In this document: piece after piece, positions 1 through 5,080 of the stretch
How the letters are laid out: every line of letters starts with the position of its first letter
How positions within the stretch are numbered: the first letter of the stretch is position 1
Assembly (NCBI GenBank): GCA_051002645.1
Contig: JBPCMC010000270.1
Span: 1 to 34,227, forward strand
Reading direction: 5' to 3'
Source of the DNA: Thermomicrobiales bacterium
Lineage (GTDB): Bacteria > Chloroflexota > Chloroflexia > Thermomicrobiales > JALYUS01
Length of the DNA: 34,227 nt
Notes under the pieces: generated by a model
The model's input: only the letters and a program-made list of their open reading frames with translations
Told to the model about the DNA's origin: nothing
Database searches by the model: none
Made by a program: the position numbers and the translations under genes

Positions 1-54
1 AACTTCATCGGCGACGGCCTGCGCGACGCGCTCGACCCGCGCATGAACATCTGA
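1..54 (+). CDS. C-terminal end of peptide/nickel ABC transporter permease (OppC/DppC family), partial
   Basis: Frame +1 reads NFIGDGLRDALDPRMNI*. GDGLRDALDP is the typical OppC/DppC C-terminus. The TGA overlaps the next ATG (TGATG). Confidence 0.85.
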   Translation, partial: NFIGDGLRDALDPRMNI

Positions 55-1049
55 TGACGATAGAGACTGGTGAGCGGCAGCGGCAGCAGCAATGGTGGCA
101 CGCGCGACGGGCGGGAGAGATCGTGCCAGTCCACCTCACCCACGGCAATGCCCGCGCGACGGCGTATGCCGCGACGGGCAGTGCGGATGGCCCGATGCTC
201 ACCGTCCTCGGTGCGGTGCATGGCGACGAGTACGAGGGCCCGGTCGCCATCGCGGAACTGCTCCATGCGCTGACGACCCGTTCGATCACCGGTACCCTGA
301 TTGCCGTCCCGGTCGTCAATGCACCCGCCTACGACGCGGGACGCCGCGCGAGCCCACGAGACGATAAAGACCTCGCGCGCTGCTTTCCCGGCGACTCAAG
401 CGGGACAGCGAGCGAGCAGTTGGCGCACCTGATCGCCACGGAATGTATCGCGCCCGCTGATGCGCTCATCGACCTGCACAGCGGCGGTGTCGCGCTCGAT
501 GGCGCGCTGCTCGTCGGCTTTACCGCGACGGACGACACTGCTGGCGCACGATCGCGCGAACTCGCCTCCGCATTCGGCGCGCCGGTGATCTGGGAGCACC
601 CGCCTCCGATACCGCCGGGCCGCACCGGGTCCTTCGCGCTCGACCGGGGCATTCCCTTCATCTATACGGAAGCGACGGGCGGCGGACAGGCGGATCGCAC
701 GACCGTCACATGCTTCGTTGAGGGCGTGCAGCGGGTGATGGTCGCGATGGGGATGCTCCCCGGCGACGCGCCCGCGCCGCGTCATCGCGACTACTGGCGC
801 GGCGGAGGAAACACGGACACGATGGTTGCCGCCCGTATCGATGGGCTTTTCCGCGCCTCTGCCCGCGCCGGAGACGTGGTCACAGCGGGCACACCGGTCG
901 GTGAGATCATCGACGCACACGGCACGGTCATCGAACGCCTCCTCGCCCCGCACGCGGGCGTCCTCCCCTTCATCCGCCGCATCCCCCGCGTGCGCCCCGG
1001 CGACGGCCTCTACATGCTGACCCAACGCGTCGAAGAAGCGCTGCCCTGA
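54..1049 (+). CDS. Succinylglutamate desuccinylase/aspartoacylase family (M14-like) metallohydrolase
   Basis: Motifs GAVHGDE, DLARCFPG, IDLHSGG and a YTE catalytic Glu; C-terminal hybrid (biotinyl-like) domain. Confidence 0.88.
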   Translation: MTIETGERQRQQQWWHARRAGEIVPVHLTHGNARATAYAATGSADGPMLTVLGAVHGDEYEGPVAIAELLHALTTRSITGTLIAVPVVNAPAYDAGRRASPRDDKDLARCFPGDSSGTASEQLAHLIATECIAPADALIDLHSGGVALDGALLVGFTATDDTAGARSRELASAFGAPVIWEHPPPIPPGRTGSFALDRGIPFIYTEATGGGQADRTTVTCFVEGVQRVMVAMGMLPGDAPAPRHRDYWRGGGNTDTMVAARIDGLFRASARAGDVVTAGTPVGEIIDAHGTVIERLLAPHAGVLPFIRRIPRVRPGDGLYMLTQRVEEALP

Positions 1050-1058
1050 CGCGGGGGA

Positions 1059-1100
1059 CCTCACCCCCCGGCCCCCTCTCCATCGCAACGGAGAGGGGGA
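1059..1100 (+). repeat. Family A palindromic repeat (CCTCACCCC..CCCTCTCC-loop-GGAGAGGG)
   Basis: cctcaccccccggccccctctccatcgcaacggagaggggga, starting 10 nt after the stop. Related copies at 2388, 5884, 5978, 8866, 18961, 22097 and two within 26176-26267. Confidence 0.9.
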
Positions 1101-1210
1101 GCAATACAGAGCGCATCGAGCCAAGACATGCTCGGTGTCTGTTTGCAGTGACGTTGGCAACAACGCACATAGGTACGAGCAGGTCGATTACGTCCTCAAT
1201 CATCTCTGGA

Positions 1211-1268
1211 CGAATTCAGCGAATTCAGCGATTTCGCTATTGATTTTCGATTTCAGGTGCTTTAAAGT
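1211..1268 (+). promoter_or_regulatory. Putative sigma70 promoter (TTGATT-N17-TAAAGT) overlapped by CGAWTTCAG direct repeats
   Basis: -35 at 1240-1245, -10 at 1263-1268. Repeats cgaattcag 1211-1219 and 1220-1228, cgatttcgc 1229-1237, cgatttcag 1248-1256. Confidence 0.55.
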
Positions 1269-1318
1269 GGATCCATCGATGCCGCAACCTGTTTATGGAC
1301 ACGATAGGAGATGCGACC

Positions 1319-2260
1319 GTGGATCACGTCGAGCCCACCGAGACGGTTATGACAGAGGAAGCGATGCCGAGGTCTGACGCCCCAAGCCCCCGTGCACAGG
1401 CTTTGCGCGACGAGTTGTTCGGATCCGCGCTCACGGTCGACGAGGTCGCTCACGTCCTCGGCCTCGATCGCACTACGGTCGGCAAGTACCTGCGCGAGAA
1501 CGTGCTCTATGGCTTTCAGATCGGGCGAGAATGGCTCGTCTCCGAGGAGGAGCTCCGTGCCTACGTTACCCGGCTGAGTGCCAAGCAGTTCCGCATCGAC
1601 GACGACCGCTTTGCCAAGTTCACCGACCGTGCCATGAGCGCGTTCGCGCTGGCAAACGATGAAGCGCGCCGGTTTCACCACAACTATCTCGGCACCGAAC
1701 ATCTGCTCCTTGGGCTCATCCGCAATAGAGATGGTGTGGCGGGGCGTGCTCTCGCCAACCTTGGTGTGGAGTTGGATGCAGCCAGGCTGCGACTGACACT
1801 GATCATCGGCCATGGAAGCGGTACGCCAGGCGAACCGAAGATGACCTCACGACTGAGTAAAGTGGTCGATTTGGCCATCAATGAAGCGCTGGAGTTGCGT
1901 CACAACTACCTTGGCACGGAACACCTGCTGCTTGGCCTCCTACGGGAGGGCGAAGGGATCGCTGCCGGTATCCTCGAATCCTTGGGCTTCCCGCTGGAAA
2001 AGGTGCATGAGGGGCTGATGCTCATCCTGACGCAGACTCTCCCGAAGTCTACGACCGAGACCGATCAGGTCACGCACACGTTGCGGCTTCCGAAAGAGAT
2101 GTATGCAGCACTGTGGACGCGTGCTATGCAGGAAAAGCGCATGGTAGATGATCTCATCCGTGGGGCGATCGTGGGCATCATCGAACCGGTTCGTGAATCG
2201 CCTCGCCTCCAAGGGCAGGCCGAATCGGTGTCTGAGGATGAAGCGCCCGCGAATAGATGA
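1319..2260 (+). CDS. HTH (excisionase/HTH_17-like) + Clp N-terminal repeat domain + ribbon-helix-helix fusion; putative regulator
   Basis: LTVDEVAHVLGLDRTTVGKYLRE..GFQIGREWLV (HTH_17-like); two Clp_N repeats FTDRA..HNYLGTEHLLLGL and MTSRL..HNYLGTEHLLLGL; THTLRLPKEMYAALWTRAMQEKRMVDDLIRGAI (RHH-like). No AAA+ module. Start placed at GTG 1319 behind AGGAG (alternative ATG 1295). Confidence 0.82.
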   Translation: MDHVEPTETVMTEEAMPRSDAPSPRAQALRDELFGSALTVDEVAHVLGLDRTTVGKYLRENVLYGFQIGREWLVSEEELRAYVTRLSAKQFRIDDDRFAKFTDRAMSAFALANDEARRFHHNYLGTEHLLLGLIRNRDGVAGRALANLGVELDAARLRLTLIIGHGSGTPGEPKMTSRLSKVVDLAINEALELRHNYLGTEHLLLGLLREGEGIAAGILESLGFPLEKVHEGLMLILTQTLPKSTTETDQVTHTLRLPKEMYAALWTRAMQEKRMVDDLIRGAIVGIIEPVRESPRLQGQAESVSEDEAPANR

Positions 2261-2387
2261 GCGCCCGCAGATCCTGGCCATAGTATTGCCACGGCTACCG
2301 CAAACCCGCGCTGTATATACTCTGGCTAGGTGTGATACAGGGAGAGAAAAGTCATTCAAGGGAAGCCACGACATTCGACGCGAGTCA

Positions 2388-2425
2388 CCCCTCTCCATCG
2401 CGATGGAGAGGGGACGGGGGTGAGG
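2388..2425 (-). repeat. Family A palindromic repeat, inverted relative to the 1059 copy
   Basis: Perfect 26-bp palindrome cccctctccatcgcgatggagagggg (2388-2413) followed by acgggggtgagg. Confidence 0.9.
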
Positions 2426-2519
2426 TTCCCCGCTCGAACGCATATGCGTCCTTTCATGCTATCGTTGTGTCATGATCGAGACACGGCCCGCCGCGTCCGG
2501 CGACTCGGAGGAGGAGATT

Positions 2520-4505
2520 ATGGCCCAATCGCACAGCGCCGCGACGATGCCGGTCGGCCACGATGACGGCAGCGCGGAGATCGTCTGGCGTCCCACCGAC
2601 GAGTATATGCAGCGGAGCCGCCTGCGCCGCTTCATGGAGCGCGAGTGGATCGGTTCGTTCGATGAATTGCTGACGCGAGCGGCGGACGACGCGGCCTGGT
2701 TCTGGGATGCGACGGTCAAGGACCTCGACCTCCAATTCTACCGCCCGTACGATGCGGTGGTCGATCTCTCCACCGGCACGCCGTGGGCGACATGGTTCCC
2801 CGGCGGGCAGTACAACTACGGCCATAATGCGCTCGACAAGCACGCGACGGGCACGTTCGCCGGGAAGACGGCGGTGATCTGGGAGGGCGACGACGGCGAC
2901 AGTCGCCAGCTGACCTACCGCGCGCTCTGGGAGCAGACGAACCAACTGGCGGGCGCGCTCGCGACGCTCGGCGTCGGCAAGGGGGATCGCGTCGGCATCT
3001 TCATGCCGATGCTGCCGGAGACGGTAATGGCGACCTTCGCGGTCTCGAAACTGGGCGCGATCTACATCCCGATCTTCTCCGGCTACGGCGCGGAATCGGT
3101 CGCGACGCGGCTGCGGGATGCGGGCGCGAAAGTGCTGATTACGGCGGATGGCTTCTACCGCCGGGGCAAGGTTATTCCGCTCAAAGAGACCGCCGATGCC
3201 GCGATTGCGGACGTGGAGAGCATCGAGTCCGTCATCGTTTTCCGCCGGACGGGTGGCGATGTTCCCTTCACACCGGGCCGCGACTATTGGTGGCACGAGA
3301 TCGCCCCAAGTCAACCGACCGAGCGGGAGACCGAGCGGACGGATGCCGAAGACCCGTACATGATTATCTACACCTCGGGCACGACCGGCCGCCCAAAAGG
3401 CGCGTTGCACACGCACGACGGCTTCCCGATCAAGGCGACGCAGGACCTCGCGCACTGCTTCGATGTGCAGGAGGACGACACGCTGCTCTGGTTCACGGAC
3501 CTCGGCTGGATGATGGGGCCATGGGCGATCACCGGCACCCTGACACTGGGCGCGACGCTCGTCCTCTTCGAGGGCACACCGGACTGGCCGGGGCCCGAAC
3601 GCATCTGGTCGCTGATCGAGAAGTATCGCATCACCGTCTGCGGCGTCGCGCCGACCGTCGTGCGCGCGCTGATGGCGCAGGGCGACCGGTGGCCTGCGGG
3701 ACGCGATCTCTCCTCCCTGCGGGTGCTTGGCTCCAGCGGCGAGGCGTGGAATCCGGGGCCGTGGCAATGGTTCTTCGCGCAAATCGGCGGCGGCCGCTGC
3801 CCGATCATCAACTACTCCGGCGGCACGGAGATTTCCGGCGGCATCCTCAGCAGCTTCACCATCCTCCCCCTCAAATCAACCTGCTTCTCCGCGCCGGTAC
3901 CGGGAATGGCGGTGGATGTGGTGGACGATACCGGGAACCCGGTGCGCGGTGCGGTCGGCGAATTGGTGATCCGCAACGCCTGGCCGGGCATGACGCGCGG
4001 CTTCTGGCAGGACACCGCGCGCTACGAGGAGACCTACTGGTCGCGCATCCCCGGTCTCTGGGTGCATGGCGATTTTGCGCGTATCGACGCGGACGGCTTC
4101 TGGTACATTCTCGGTCGTTCGGATGACACGATCAAGGTGGCAGGCAAGCGCGTTGGCCCGGCGGAGATCGAGTCGGCGGCCGTTTCCCATCCGGCGGTGC
4201 AGGAGGCGGCGGCGATCAGCATCCCGCACGCCATCAAGGGTGAGACGATTGTCGCCTTCGTCGTGCTCCGGCCGGGTCACGCGCCGAGCGAACCGCTCCG
4301 GCAGGAGATCGAAGCGGAGATCACGAACCAACTCGGCAAGTCGCTCAAGCCAGAGGCGGTCAAATTCGTCACCGACCTGCCGAAGACACGCAACGCGAAA
4401 GTGATGCGCCGCGTCATCCGCGCCCGCTACCTCGACCTCCCATTGGGGGACATCACCGCCCTGGAAAACCCCGCTGCAGTGGAGGGTATTGCTCAGGCAC
4501 GTTGA
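2520..4505 (+). CDS. acsA: Acetyl-CoA synthetase / acetate-CoA ligase (AMP-forming)
   Basis: YTSGTTGRPKG AMP-binding motif, GRSDDTIKVAGKRVG, LPKTRNAKVMRR. GAGGAGGAG RBS before ATG 2520. Exact acyl substrate uncertain. Confidence 0.85.
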   Translation: MAQSHSAATMPVGHDDGSAEIVWRPTDEYMQRSRLRRFMEREWIGSFDELLTRAADDAAWFWDATVKDLDLQFYRPYDAVVDLSTGTPWATWFPGGQYNYGHNALDKHATGTFAGKTAVIWEGDDGDSRQLTYRALWEQTNQLAGALATLGVGKGDRVGIFMPMLPETVMATFAVSKLGAIYIPIFSGYGAESVATRLRDAGAKVLITADGFYRRGKVIPLKETADAAIADVESIESVIVFRRTGGDVPFTPGRDYWWHEIAPSQPTERETERTDAEDPYMIIYTSGTTGRPKGALHTHDGFPIKATQDLAHCFDVQEDDTLLWFTDLGWMMGPWAITGTLTLGATLVLFEGTPDWPGPERIWSLIEKYRITVCGVAPTVVRALMAQGDRWPAGRDLSSLRVLGSSGEAWNPGPWQWFFAQIGGGRCPIINYSGGTEISGGILSSFTILPLKSTCFSAPVPGMAVDVVDDTGNPVRGAVGELVIRNAWPGMTRGFWQDTARYEETYWSRIPGLWVHGDFARIDADGFWYILGRSDDTIKVAGKRVGPAEIESAAVSHPAVQEAAAISIPHAIKGETIVAFVVLRPGHAPSEPLRQEIEAEITNQLGKSLKPEAVKFVTDLPKTRNAKVMRRVIRARYLDLPLGDITALENPAAVEGIAQAR

Positions 4506-4516
4506 GAGCGGTTCGC

Positions 4517-4560
4517 GACGTTTAGTGGCGGCGGGCTTCAGTCCACCGCCACTAAACGTC
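4517..4560. repeat. Family B (GTGG/GTAG REP-like) hairpin, likely acting as acsA terminator/stabiliser
   Basis: Perfect 15-bp arms gacgtttagtggcgg / ccgccactaaacgtc; core gtggcggcgggcttcag shared with copies at 8806, 9503 and 17872. Confidence 0.75.
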
Positions 4561-4642
4561 ACCATGAGACGGTATAATGCGCACGACGCGCCGGGCAACG
4601 GTGCAGGTCTACGCCACCACCGAACGAGAGGCACATGCCGCG

Positions 4643-4837
4643 ATGAGACAAATCTTCCTTCTGCTCTGGATACTCTGGGTAAATATGCTCTGGATCTTCG
4701 GGGTCCCGTCGATCTATCTTCTGCGCCTCGGGGATTGGCGCGCCGGTGTTTCCGTCCCGTTGTTCCTCTTCACGCTCTACGCCGGGTGGCGCCTCTACCG
4801 GCGCACGCGGCGGGATTGGCAGCAGAGCAGTTGGTAG
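4643..4837 (+). CDS. Small two-helix membrane protein (64 aa), hypothetical
   Basis: Two hydrophobic segments and an Arg-rich tail (positive-inside pattern); TATAAT at 4573-4578 upstream. Confidence 0.6.
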   Translation: MRQIFLLLWILWVNMLWIFGVPSIYLLRLGDWRAGVSVPLFLFTLYAGWRLYRRTRRDWQQSSW

Positions 4838-5080
4838 CGCGGGCTGAAGCCCAATACAGTTAAGTGAAGCGCGAAGATGACGCATTCCGTAGGGGCGGTG
4901 CTCGAACCGCCCTCCGTTGCGAACCGATGCCTCGATGGATGGCGACGGACGCCGACAGGCCGGGGAGGGCGGTTCAAGCACCGCCCCTACGCAGGCGTTC
5001 TCGTTGCTGATCGCTGCGAAACTGAATCGCATTGGGCTTCGGCCTGCAAGGGGGATGCAGGCTGGAAAGCCTGCGCTACC
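4833..5080. repeat. Nested cluster of GTAG-type REPs including a REP doublet (REPIN-like)
   Basis: Inner arms cgtaggggcggtgctcgaaccgccctcc (4888-4915) and its inverse (4964-4991), 27/28 identical. Outer gcgggctgaagcccaat / attgggcttcggcctgc. GGTAG-led REPs at both ends. Confidence 0.85.

What the first reader, a model, noticed from the sequence alone, without database searches (positions are those of the whole stretch)
1319..2260. Stand-alone ClpC N-domain between two different DNA-binding domains: candidate phospho-arginine/proteotoxic-stress sensing regulator
Seen: an N-terminal excisionase-like HTH, a complete two-repeat Clp N-domain with no ATPase, and a C-terminal strand-helix-helix pattern typical of Arc/CopG RHH. 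Established: the ClpC N-domain binds pArg through T-x-R and GTE motifs (B. subtilis R9/E106 and R83/E32). Actinobacterial ClpC2 is a DNA-binding + Clp-repeat autorepressor that also sequesters cyclomarin-type antibiotics. Both pocket motifs are retained here (FTDRA/GTEH and MTSRL/GTEH). Inference: a ClpC2-analogous sensor or decoy with a three-domain HTH-ClpN-RHH architecture that I do not recall being described; the RHH could dimerise it or read a second operator.
Basis: partly seen in the sequence, partly recalled or inferred. Interest (0 to 1): 0.78.

Follow-up and report, generated by a model that had tools for sequence, protein, structure and literature searches.

The report
Three-domain ClpC-like sensor regulator
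A rare accessory gene of a Chloroflexota bacterium joins two different DNA-binding modules to a stand-alone copy of the substrate-recognition domain of the ClpC protein-unfolding machine, and it most likely works as a self-regulating switch that reports protein-damage signals, much like ClpC2 of actinobacteria.

Summary
The ORF at 1319-2260 (+) encodes an HTH_17 domain, a double Clp_N domain without an ATPase, and a C-terminal ribbon-helix-helix (RHH). Pfam sees the first two domains but not the RHH. The RHH rests on a profile-profile match (hhalign 95%, E 3e-8) to an independently collected RHH_1 alignment.

The core is a small HTH_17+Clp_N family. It was found only in metagenomes and Chloroflexota MAGs (29 protein clusters). 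Most relatives end in a zinc ribbon or have no tail. Only this protein and two close relatives carry the RHH tail, which resembles the tails of Clp_N proteins resident in this genus.

The gene sits in a 1.38-kb insertion between genes that are adjacent in a same-genus genome.

A new point: the family's loci share tandem 9-bp direct repeats abutting the -35 of a promoter-like element. In this genome that tandem occurs only here. This fits an autoregulator with BldC/Xis-like head-to-tail DNA binding.

Both ClpC phospho-arginine pockets are retained. However, no McsB kinase was found in 301 genomes of the phylum, and cyclomarin-contact residues are not kept.

Verdict: a convergent, ClpC2-like sensor-regulator and a new variant of a known kind. 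The ligand and the direction of regulation are untested.

The parts
1058..1104 (.). Left REP-like palindromic element that bounds the insertion
   Evidence: A hairpin with arms 1072-1081 and 1090-1099, 100% complementary. It is an inverted copy of the element at 2380-2431. Its 13-nt core occurs 186 times, both strands counted, on 94 contigs of the genome.
1069..2445 (.). A 1.38-kb insertion that carries only this gene and its promoter
   Evidence: In same-genus genome G047, contig C4, window 1-1068 and window 2446-4506 are adjacent, with about 50 nt of intergenic DNA. G025 holds a different gene at this site. GC content of 1001-2000 is 0.59 against 0.63-0.69 around it.
1211..1237 (+). Three tandem 9-bp direct repeats (CGAATTCAG, CGAATTCAG, CGATTTCGC), the candidate operator for the HTH_17 domain
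   Evidence: Found by the repeat finder as family D1. The two-unit tandem pattern occurs once in the 4.6-Mb genome on both strands. An equivalent tandem at 2 mismatches or fewer lies 92-128 nt upstream of the start codon in 8 of 11 family loci.
1240..1268 (+). Promoter-like element: -35 TTGATT (1240-1245), 17-nt spacer, -10 TAAAGT (1263-1268). A fourth repeat unit, CGATTTCAG, lies in the spacer at 1248-1256.
   Evidence: A TTGNNN-17-TANNNT element sits at the same place in 10 of 11 family loci, with the repeat block directly upstream of the -35. The generic promoter scan did not call it; it matches 8 of 12 consensus positions by my count.
1306..1310 (+). Shine-Dalgarno-like AGGAG, 8 nt before GTG 1319
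   Evidence: Read directly from the sequence.
1319..2260 (+). Coding sequence of the HTH_17 - Clp_N x2 - RHH protein (313 aa from GTG 1319; the stop codon is included)
1430..1573 (+). HTH_17 (excisionase/MerR-like winged helix), residues 46-93 in P0001 numbering
   Evidence: Pfam E 6.1e-10 and NCBIfam 'excise' E 6.5e-9. The AlphaFold2 model shows strand-helix-helix-strand-strand-helix over residues 45-97. This region is 70-77% identical across the family.
1610..2038 (+). ClpC-NTD-like double Clp_N domain, residues 106-248, with both pArg pockets kept by position
   Evidence: Pfam E 4.4e-31. PDB sequence search: Mtb ClpC1 NTD E 2.6e-39. Foldseek: 8b9u, target TM 0.92, rmsd 1.6. It is 59.7% identical to this genome's own ClpC NTD. 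pLDDT is above 90.
2069..2188 (+). Ribbon-helix-helix-like domain, residues 259-298 (strand VTHTLRL, helix 267-280, helix 284-300)
   Evidence: hhalign 95.1% and 95.5% against the independent RHH_1 alignment. PDB EndoAI E 0.0081. It is homologous to the tail of paralogue C335 (32% over 47 aa, E 9e-7).
2189..2257 (+). Acidic C-terminal extension with low model confidence
   Evidence: pLDDT is about 51-58. It is partly conserved among the three close relatives.
2380..2431 (.). Right REP-like palindromic element that bounds the insertion
   Evidence: A perfect 13+13 nt palindrome at 2388-2413. It has many copies in this genome and in same-genus genomes.

Best explanation
The gene encodes an autoregulated, ligand-responsive transcription factor built around a stand-alone copy of the ClpC N-terminal domain. 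It is a convergent counterpart of actinobacterial ClpC2.

Proposed mechanism:
1. The HTH_17 winged helix binds the tandem 9-bp direct repeats (1211-1237, plus a unit at 1248-1256). These abut and enter the gene's own promoter. Binding is head-to-tail, as in BldC and Xis.
2. The C-terminal RHH pairs two chains, taking the place of the zinc ribbon found in most relatives. It raises avidity or bridges repeat sets.
3. The Clp_N domain keeps both ClpC phospho-arginine pockets and acts as the sensor. When it is occupied by a ClpC-type ligand, the oligomer on DNA is loosened and the promoter is freed. The ligand could be pArg-marked or otherwise degron-bearing protein, or a compound aimed at the ClpC NTD.
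4. The accumulating protein may then buffer ligands of the cell's ClpC.

Shown here: the three domains, conservation of the pocket residues, the conserved repeat-promoter architecture, its uniqueness in the genome, and the accessory status of the gene.

Inferred: that the repeats are this protein's operator, that regulation is repression, that the RHH dimerises, and what the ligand is.
For: Domains.

Pocket residues across the 28 aligned family members:
- E135: 28 of 28
- E209: 28 of 28
- T184: 28 of 28
- R186: 27 of 28
- T110: 25 of 28 (the other 3 have S)
- R112: 22 of 28

Operator-like repeats:
- The tandem GAWTTSAG-N-GAWTTSAG lies on the coding strand 92-128 nt upstream of the start codon, at 2 mismatches or fewer, in 8 of 11 family loci with enough upstream DNA. 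L045 has it at 3 mismatches. L016 and L046 have one unit only.
- The background in the own genome is 7 hits at 2 mismatches or fewer in 9.2 Mb, and 2 of those 7 are at this promoter.
- The stricter tandem regex has 1 hit in the genome, which is this one.
- In 10 of 11 loci the repeats lie directly upstream of a TTGNNN-17-TANNNT element that sits 42-69 nt before the start codon.

Gene neighbours differ between loci, so the gene travels alone with its promoter.

Precedents from papers:
- ClpC2 is an autorepressor released by cyclomarin A (PMC10030653; abstract and sections 7 and 10 read).
- ClpC2 is also released by pArg (bioRxiv 10.64898/2026.06.30.735635; abstract, introduction, two results sections and discussion read).
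- BldC, a MerR/Xis-like winged helix, binds 9-bp direct repeats AATTxxxx(C) head-to-tail (PMC5859096; passages).

The genome has ClpC (827 aa) and ClpP, so the system being sensed is present.
Against: - No DNA binding, ligand binding or oligomerisation was tested.
- No McsB-type kinase (PF00217) was found in this genome, which is 86% complete, or in any of 301 genomes of the phylum, this genome included. No CtsR was found. A pArg signal therefore has no known source here. The same is true of mycobacteria according to the preprint's introduction.
- The pocket residues are also those of ordinary ClpC NTDs. This genome's own ClpC has FTERA, GTEH, LTPRA and GTEH. Their retention may reflect ancestry and fold rather than binding.
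- Pfam gives no RHH hit for the tail. No relative of the tail outside its own cluster was found among 1.84 billion representatives.
- The tail-only AlphaFold2 model is a long helix with mean pLDDT 69.5 rather than a compact fold.
- The generic scan calls no promoter in 1040-2480.
- The repeat consensus was derived from the same loci in which it was then counted. Some of those loci are duplicates (L015=L050, L043 nearly equal to L051) or kin.
- Repeats that lie upstream of the -35 would also suit an activator.
- The RHH-tailed form is known from only three protein clusters. It could be a recent chimera of little consequence.
Confidence: 0.5

Rival explanations
1. The protein has the same architecture and the same operator, but it activates its own promoter instead of repressing it. 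It would do so by recruiting RNA polymerase from sites just upstream of the -35.
For: In 10 of 11 loci the repeat block lies directly upstream of the -35. That is the usual place for class I/II activators and for response regulators that bind direct repeats (general knowledge). The window's hexamers match only 8 of 12 consensus positions, and the scan does not call a promoter there.
Against: The relatives' promoters look self-sufficient, for example TTGCTA-17-TATAGT or TAGAAT. In the window a fourth unit lies inside the spacer at 1248-1256, which favours occlusion. The one characterised analogue, ClpC2, is a repressor.
Confidence: 0.2
2. The protein is mainly a decoy or adaptor of ClpC. Its Clp_N domain sequesters ClpC substrates, adaptors or NTD-binding compounds, and the DNA-binding domains only tether or store it.
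For: The Clp_N domain is 59.7% identical to the genome's own ClpC NTD. Its model is nearly superimposable on ClpC1 NTD (target TM 0.92). ClpC2 also acts as a sponge (abstract). The genome holds further Clp_N-only proteins.
Against: The strongest conservation in the family is in the HTH region (70-77% identity, 33 invariant columns of 66) and in the upstream repeats. That points to a specific DNA-binding function. Cyclomarin-contact positions are not kept: F80 is M or L, and in this protein K85 is S and E89 is D.
Confidence: 0.15
3. It is an excisionase (recombination directionality factor) or an RHH antitoxin that belongs to a mobile element or a toxin-antitoxin pair.
For: Sources label family members 'excisionase family DNA binding protein'. 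The gene sits in an insertion flanked by inverted repeat elements. The best solved match of the tail is an antitoxin.
Against: The insertion holds this single gene and no integrase or toxin ORF. The flanks are a genome-wide REP-like element with 186 core hits, not element-specific ends. No full-length match was found in 50,697 phage records or 72,556 plasmid records; only the Clp_N part matched. Gene neighbours in the other loci are unrelated to one another.
Confidence: 0.05

Closest known systems
Actinobacterial ClpC2 (for example M. tuberculosis or M. smegmatis ClpC2)
   Same: Both are small proteins without an ATPase that join a DNA-binding or dimerising domain to a ClpC-NTD-like double Clp_N domain. 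ClpC2 represses its own promoter and is released by cyclomarin A and by pArg. It is a single-gene unit with the operator at its own promoter.
   Different: - The ClpC2 N-domain is a four-helix bundle (PDB 8ADA). Here it is an HTH_17 winged helix.
- The ClpC2 operator is the pseudopalindrome CGTCAAC-n5-GTTGACG, which is absent upstream of this gene. Here there are tandem direct 9-mers.
- ClpC2 keeps one of the two pArg sites. Here both are kept by position.
- This Clp_N matches ClpC1 NTD at E 2.6e-39, but the ClpC2 C-terminal domains only at 2.9e-17 and 2.4e-13.
- This protein has an extra RHH and comes from a different phylum.
BldC of Streptomyces (MerR/Xis-like winged helix)
   Same: It is a small excisionase/MerR-like wHTH that binds variable numbers of 9-bp direct repeats with an AT-rich core, AATTxxxx(C), head-to-tail. 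The repeats here are also 9 bp, tandem, with an AATT or ATTT core.
   Different: BldC is a 68-residue single domain with no sensor. No sequence similarity to a solved BldC entry was detected: the profile search of the PDB at E<=10 gave 3 unrelated chains. That BldC falls in Pfam HTH_17 is recalled, not tested.
N-terminal domain of ClpC / ClpC1
   Same: Same fold and 43-50% identity. The positions T7/R9/E32 and T81/R83/E106 are kept.
   Different: There are no AAA+ modules, so the protein cannot unfold or deliver substrates.
Ribbon-helix-helix proteins (CopG/Arc/MetJ superfamily; antitoxin EndoAI, 4me7)
   Same: Strand-helix-helix pattern. hhalign 95% to RHH_1 domains. EndoAI E 0.0081.
   Different: It lies below Pfam detection. 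It is placed at the C-terminus of a larger regulator. The G-x-S/T turn typical of the family (recalled) is replaced by K-R-M.
Unnamed HTH_17 - linker - Clp_N - zinc-ribbon proteins of Chloroflexota MAGs and metagenomes
   Same: Homologous HTH (70-77% identical) and Clp_N (42-53% over the whole protein), with the same promoter-repeat architecture.
   Different: The relatives have a 35-65-residue linker that is missing here. They end in a CxxC...CFNCG zinc ribbon (16 of 28 aligned) or have no tail (9 of 28), whereas 3 of 28 have the RHH. The zinc ribbon gives only sub-threshold Pfam hits.

Membership tests
Pfam HTH_17 (PF12728) / NCBIfam excisionase-family DNA-binding domain | Profile match above the curated cut-off | tested here: met
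   39.7 bits against a cut-off of 27. TIGR01764: 36 bits against a cut-off of 28.8.
Clp_N (PF02861) double repeat = ClpC-type N-domain | Two Clp_N repeats that form one roughly 145-residue helical domain | tested here: met
   107 bits over two stretches. The model superimposes on ClpC1 NTD with target TM 0.92 and rmsd 1.6.
Clp/Hsp100 unfoldase (ClpC, ClpB) | AAA+ ATPase modules after the N-domain | tested here: not met
   The protein ends at residue 321. NCBIfam ClpB, ClpA and ClpK matches cover only the N-domain and lie far below their cut-offs.
Ribbon-helix-helix superfamily | Match to an RHH profile | tested here: inconclusive
   Pfam gives no family at E<=10. hhalign to an independent alignment of 19 RHH_1 domains gives 95.1% and 95.5%. 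PDB EndoAI scores E 0.0081 and 0.033. Of the 10 best genome hits of the tail profile, 8 carry Pfam RHH families at E<=0.1. One of those 8 comes from the unpublished genome G272.
Ribbon-helix-helix superfamily | Strand plus two helices that form an intertwined dimer with a two-stranded ribbon | tested here: inconclusive
   The full-length model shows helices 267-280 and 284-300 after a low-confidence stretch. The tail-only model merges them into one helix. The dimer itself could not be established with these tools.
Actinobacterial ClpC2 | C-terminal domain homologous to the ClpC1 NTD, without an ATPase | tested here: met
Actinobacterial ClpC2 | N-terminal four-helix-bundle dimerisation domain (PDB 8ADA) | tested here: not met
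   The N-terminus is HTH_17. The PDB search with the whole protein matched only ClpC2 C-terminal domains, not 8ADA.
Actinobacterial ClpC2 | Pseudopalindromic operator CGTCAAC-n5-GTTGACG at its own promoter | tested here: not met
   There are 4 matches at 3 mismatches or fewer in the window (2.0 expected), and none lies in 1040-1330.
Actinobacterial ClpC2 | Binds pArg and is released from DNA by it | not testable with these tools
   Only residue conservation could be checked.
BldC-like regulators | Tandem 9-bp direct repeats with an AT-rich core as the binding site | tested here: met
   Repeats at 1211-1237 and 1248-1256, conserved in the family's loci. Binding was not tested.
BldC-like regulators | Sequence or structural similarity to BldC, including its head-to-tail interface residues | tested here: inconclusive
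   No BldC chain appeared among the PDB hits of the HTH profile at E<=10. No separate HTH model was available for a fold search.

The most novel reading that the evidence does not exclude
DNA-binding domains fused to the substrate-recognition N-domains of Clp unfoldases may form a general class of 'unfoldase-mimic' transcription factors, invented several times. They would measure how loaded the proteases are by competing for the same degrons.

Forms seen here:
- HTH_17 + ClpC-NTD (with a zinc ribbon, an RHH or no tail)
- RHH + ClpC-NTD
- ClpC-NTD + RHH
- HTH_17 + ClpX zinc finger
- the known four-helix-bundle + ClpC-NTD of ClpC2

In Chloroflexota no McsB was found in 301 genomes, yet both pArg pockets are kept. 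This would imply either an unknown arginine kinase or a different acidic or phospho degron read by the same pockets.
Probability: 0.3. Interest if true: 0.8.

Novelty: new variant of a known kind. Interest (0 to 1): 0.6.

Why it matters
ClpC2 has just been established as a pArg- and antibiotic-responsive repressor in actinobacteria. This locus shows the same logic, a ClpC N-domain used as the sensor of a transcription factor, built independently in another phylum. It uses a different DNA-binding domain, a different operator grammar (tandem 9-mers rather than a palindrome) and interchangeable C-terminal modules (zinc ribbon, RHH or none).

That makes the principle testable outside pathogens. 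It also gives a natural series of domain swaps for asking how ligand binding to Clp_N is coupled to DNA release.

It sharpens an open question as well: what the conserved 'pArg' pockets read in lineages without McsB. The specific three-domain protein is rare and accessory, so its ecological weight is probably small.

Tried and rejected
- Pfam on the tail alone found 0 families at E<=10.
- The word-based homologue search on the tail found only the two close relatives.
- The exhaustive search of 1.84 billion representatives with the tail found only its own cluster.
- Complex prediction with two copies of residues 250-321 scored 0.37 against a mark of 0.42. The verdict was 'no answer', with no support and no evidence against.
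- The tail-only AlphaFold2 model came out as one long helix, so no fold search was run on it.
- The Foldseek search with the full-length model listed only Clp N-domains and gave no information on the HTH or the tail.
- PF01402 (RHH_1) gave no hit in this genome at E<=0.001. I therefore collected the independent RHH set from genomes of the class.
- The first genome-contig scan, with the single HTH sequence, found nothing. The second scan, with an alignment, found 4 loci.
- The PDB search with the HTH profile gave no meaningful hit.
- The generic promoter/terminator scan found 0 sites in 1040-2480.
- The ClpC2 operator pattern is not present upstream of this gene.
- The look-up of sequencing runs listed no RNA holder.
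- Read laying on four DNA runs returned contigs only, with no variants in the gene or promoter. The many 'joints' between about 1083-1111 and 2363-2400 join the two REP-like copies with other letters between them. I read them as other REP pairs of the metagenome, not as excision.
- Regulon search: in four genomes of genus g137 the tandem pattern at 1 mismatch or fewer hit the family's own promoters (4 hits in G271 and G280) plus 7 other places. Of those 7, 6 lie inside ORFs, including the 3' end of an rpoB-like ORF twice, and 1 is intergenic. No regulon beyond the gene itself emerges.
- Phage and plasmid collections gave only Clp_N-part matches.
- The excisionase and antitoxin readings were rejected for lack of a partner gene. 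The cyclomarin-sponge reading was downgraded because the contact residues are not kept.
- Supplementary files of the papers could not be seen. The supplementary alignments of ClpC2 orthologues and of BldC-like proteins might bear on the comparisons.
Full report
**1. The observation**

The window holds an ORF at 1295..2260 (+) of 321 aa. AGGAG lies 8 nt upstream of it, and the two nearest relatives, P0002 (96% identical) and P0003 (81%), are 313 aa long and begin at the equivalent residue.

Pfam finds HTH_17 at residues 46-93 (E 6.1e-10) and two Clp_N repeats (E 4.4e-31). NCBIfam adds the 'excise' DNA-binding domain above its cut-off. It gives only N-domain-sized, far sub-threshold matches to ClpB, ClpA and ClpK, so there is no ATPase. 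The quoted motifs FTDRA, GTEH, MTSRL and GTEH are all there.

The Clp_N part matches solved ClpC1/ClpC N-domains at E 2.6e-39 to 1e-33, but the ClpC2 C-terminal domains only at 2.9e-17 and 2.4e-13. An AlphaFold2 model built on a 28-sequence alignment has pLDDT above 90 there. It superimposes on ClpC1 NTD with target TM 0.92 and rmsd 1.6. The domain is 59.7% identical to the N-domain of the genome's own 827-aa ClpC.

**2. The C-terminal tail**

Three direct searches failed:
- Pfam gave nothing at E<=10.
- The word-based search found only the two close relatives.
- An exhaustive HMMER pass over 1.84 billion representatives found only the tail's own cluster.

The way in was a paralogue. Contig C335 of the same genome encodes a 268-aa protein with Clp_N repeats and a tail that aligns with ours without gaps (32% over 47 residues, E 9e-7).

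A four-sequence tail profile (A5) hit the solved RHH antitoxin EndoAI (4me7_E, E 0.0081). The alignment covers exactly the strand-helix-turn-helix stretch. Among 401 genomes of the phylum, the same profile pulled out small ORFs. Of the 10 best, 8 carry Pfam RHH families at E<=0.1 at the matched place, and 5 of these reach a curated cut-off. One of the 8 is from the unpublished genome G272.

For a test not selected by my own profile, I collected RHH_1 domains with Pfam's model from 61 genomes of the class. I aligned 19 of the 31 listed matches. I left out those from the two unpublished genomes, one that ran into masked sequence, and the rest for brevity. hhalign gave 95.1% probability, E 3e-8, over 39 columns.

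More tails came from same-genus genomes (G010, G051, G043, G020). With them the figure is 95.5%, E 1.5e-8.

The full-length model has helices 267-280 and 284-300 after a low-confidence stretch where the strand should be. The tail-only model merged them into one helix. The ESM Atlas's own model has RHH clusters as structural neighbours in 7 of 10 rows, at TM 0.51-0.58, which is a lead only.

I accept the RHH reading as probable. The dimer is not shown.

**3. The family**

A search restricted to residues 25-110 found 29 protein clusters, all annotated HTH_17+Clp_N, 182-370 aa long, with the HTH region 68-100% identical to ours. I aligned 28 of them, leaving out two fragments of 182 and 189 aa. 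The alignment shows three things:
- A highly conserved N-terminal region.
- A 35-65-residue linker in all 25 more distant members, which is missing in ours and its two close relatives.
- Three kinds of C-terminus: a CxxC...CFNCG zinc ribbon (16), no tail (9), and the RHH-like tail (3). The zinc ribbon gives only sub-threshold Pfam hits.

Named records are Chloroflexota MAGs. With the HTH profile, strong matches occur in 5 of 401 genomes of the phylum: this one and four of a single other genus. None of the 100 other genomes of the window's own order has a real match; the best is E 1e-6, from generic HTH_17 proteins.

By contrast, Clp_N proteins with RHH-like tails are resident in the window's genus. 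At E<=1e-4 they occur in 5 of the 10 other genus genomes searched. The three-domain protein therefore looks like the head of the HTH_17-Clp_N family joined to a locally common tail.

**4. The locus**

In same-genus genome G047, window 1-1068 and window 2446-4506 are adjacent, with about 50 nt between the two genes. The gene therefore lies in a 1.38-kb insertion. The flanking genes are an AstE/AspA-family enzyme and an acetyl-CoA-synthetase-like enzyme. Another genus member has a different gene at the same site.

The insertion is bounded by inverted copies of a REP-like palindromic element. That element is abundant in the genome, with 186 core hits on 94 contigs. The insertion also has lower GC content.

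The neighbours of family members elsewhere are unrelated to one another. No full-length relative is present in the phage or plasmid collections.

**5. A conserved cis element**

Upstream of the gene lie CGAATTCAG, CGAATTCAG and CGATTTCGC (1211-1237). They are followed by TTGATT (1240-1245), a 17-nt spacer that holds a fourth unit CGATTTCAG (1248-1256), and TAAAGT (1263-1268).

The same design recurs in the other family loci: two or three tandem 9-mers of consensus AGATTTSAG, then a TTGNNN-17-TANNNT element. Counts:
- The two-unit pattern at 2 mismatches or fewer lies 92-128 nt before the start codon, on the coding strand, in 8 of 11 loci with enough upstream DNA.
- One further locus has it at 3 mismatches, and two have a single unit.
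- The promoter-like element is found in 10 of 11 loci.
- In the own genome (9.2 Mb on both strands) there are 7 hits at 2 mismatches or fewer, 2 of them here. A stricter regex hits only here.

Caveats:
- The consensus was read from these same loci.
- Two pairs of loci are duplicates.
- The generic scan does not call a promoter in the window.

In four genomes of the other genus, the pattern at 1 mismatch or fewer hits the family's own promoters and 7 other places. Of those 7, 6 lie in coding sequence. No wider regulon emerges.

Tandem 9-bp direct repeats with an AATT/ATTT core are what the MerR/Xis-like winged helix BldC binds head-to-tail (PMC5859096, passages).

**6. Mechanism**

The best reading is an autoregulated sensor, as set out under Best explanation. 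Three lines support it:
- The ClpC2 papers.
- The pocket residues. By the ungapped correspondence with B. subtilis ClpC (query 106-248 to ClpC 3-145), T110/R112/E135 and T184/R186/E209 stand at T7/R9/E32 and T81/R83/E106. E32, E106 and T7 are named as pArg-site determinants in PMC12583610 (passages).
- Family-wide conservation of those residues: 22-28 of 28.

Four points weaken the pArg part of this reading:
- McsB was not found in this 86%-complete genome, or in any of 301 genomes of the phylum, this genome included.
- CtsR was not found.
- The same residues are standard in ClpC N-domains.
- The ClpC1 residues that contact cyclomarin (F2, F80, E89; K85) are F106, M183, D192 and S188 here, so a cyclomarin-type decoy is unlikely.

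**7. Comparison and novelty**

The protein works like ClpC2 but is not a member of that family. The DNA-binding domain, the operator and the lineage of the Clp_N domain all differ.

Full-text searches found no paper that holds both 'Clp_N' and 'HTH_17' (0 papers). The search for 'ClpC2' with 'Chloroflex...' found one unrelated paper. One search returned nothing relevant beyond a mention of ClpN repeats fused to vWA proteins. These searches cover only the held library.

I rate the finding a new variant of a known kind.

The session also turned up sibling architectures. They suggest a broader class of regulators built on unfoldase N-domains:
- RHH-like + Clp_N (contig C493)
- Clp_N + RHH (contig C335 and genus relatives)
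- A Clp_N + FitA-like-RHH cluster in Actinomycetota
- A 140-aa HTH_17 + ClpX zinc finger protein

**8. Limits**

Supplements of the papers could not be read. Tallies include the unpublished genomes G035 and G015.

Noticed in passing
window 1058-1104 and 2380-2431: A REP-like palindromic element of about 46 nt with the core CCCTCTCCATCGC...GGAGAGGG. The core occurs 186 times, both strands counted, on 94 contigs of the genome, and many times in same-genus genomes. Read in frame it produces the recurrent 'PLSIAMERG' peptides seen in spurious ORFs.
   Followed up: partly
window about 4831-5047: A second, longer repeated element of about 100-210 nt lies between the acetyl-CoA-synthetase-like gene and the SpoU methylase gene. 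It matches more than 20 other contigs of the same genome at 71-94% identity, on both strands. It may be MITE-like. It was not analysed.
   Followed up: no
L112:1405-1824 (+), genome G293: A 140-aa protein made of HTH_17 (E 1.4e-12) fused to the ClpX C4 zinc finger (E 5.2e-20). Its leader resembles that of the HTH_17-Clp_N family. This is a second kind of 'DNA-binding domain + unfoldase N-domain' fusion.
   Followed up: partly
G000 contig C493 5627-6256 (-) and contig C335 7902-8708 (+): Two further Clp_N-only proteins of the same genome carry RHH-like modules. The C493 protein (209 aa) has it at the N-terminus and the C335 protein (268 aa) at the C-terminus. Pfam sees only Clp_N in both. Genus relatives include a 471-aa protein with four Clp_N repeats plus the tail.
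   Followed up: partly
proteins P0004-P0121: There are thousands of proteins of 330-560 aa made of several Clp_N double repeats and nothing else. Many are from Ktedonobacteraceae and other Chloroflexota, are often mislabelled ClpA, and have no known function.
   Followed up: no
L016 about 3944-4970 (same place as L110): The family member in this MAG is split by a frameshift inside the HTH: one frame ends at '...GFQNRT*' and the protein continues in the next frame. This may be an assembly error or a pseudogene. Its upstream region has only one repeat unit.
   Followed up: no
L039 3608-4789 (-), genome G025: At the same intergenic site where the window has the regulator gene, this same-genus genome has an ORF that by eye looks like a DapA/N-acetylneuraminate-lyase-family enzyme. 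It was not scanned. The site seems to be a hotspot for gene gain.
   Followed up: no
phage records NC_011273.1 152877-153368 and NC_054714.1 151775-152242: Mycobacterium phages Myrna (gp251) and Phabba encode a Clp_N-only protein that is 44-46% identical to this Clp_N domain. It could be a phage-borne mimic of the ClpC1 N-domain.
   Followed up: no
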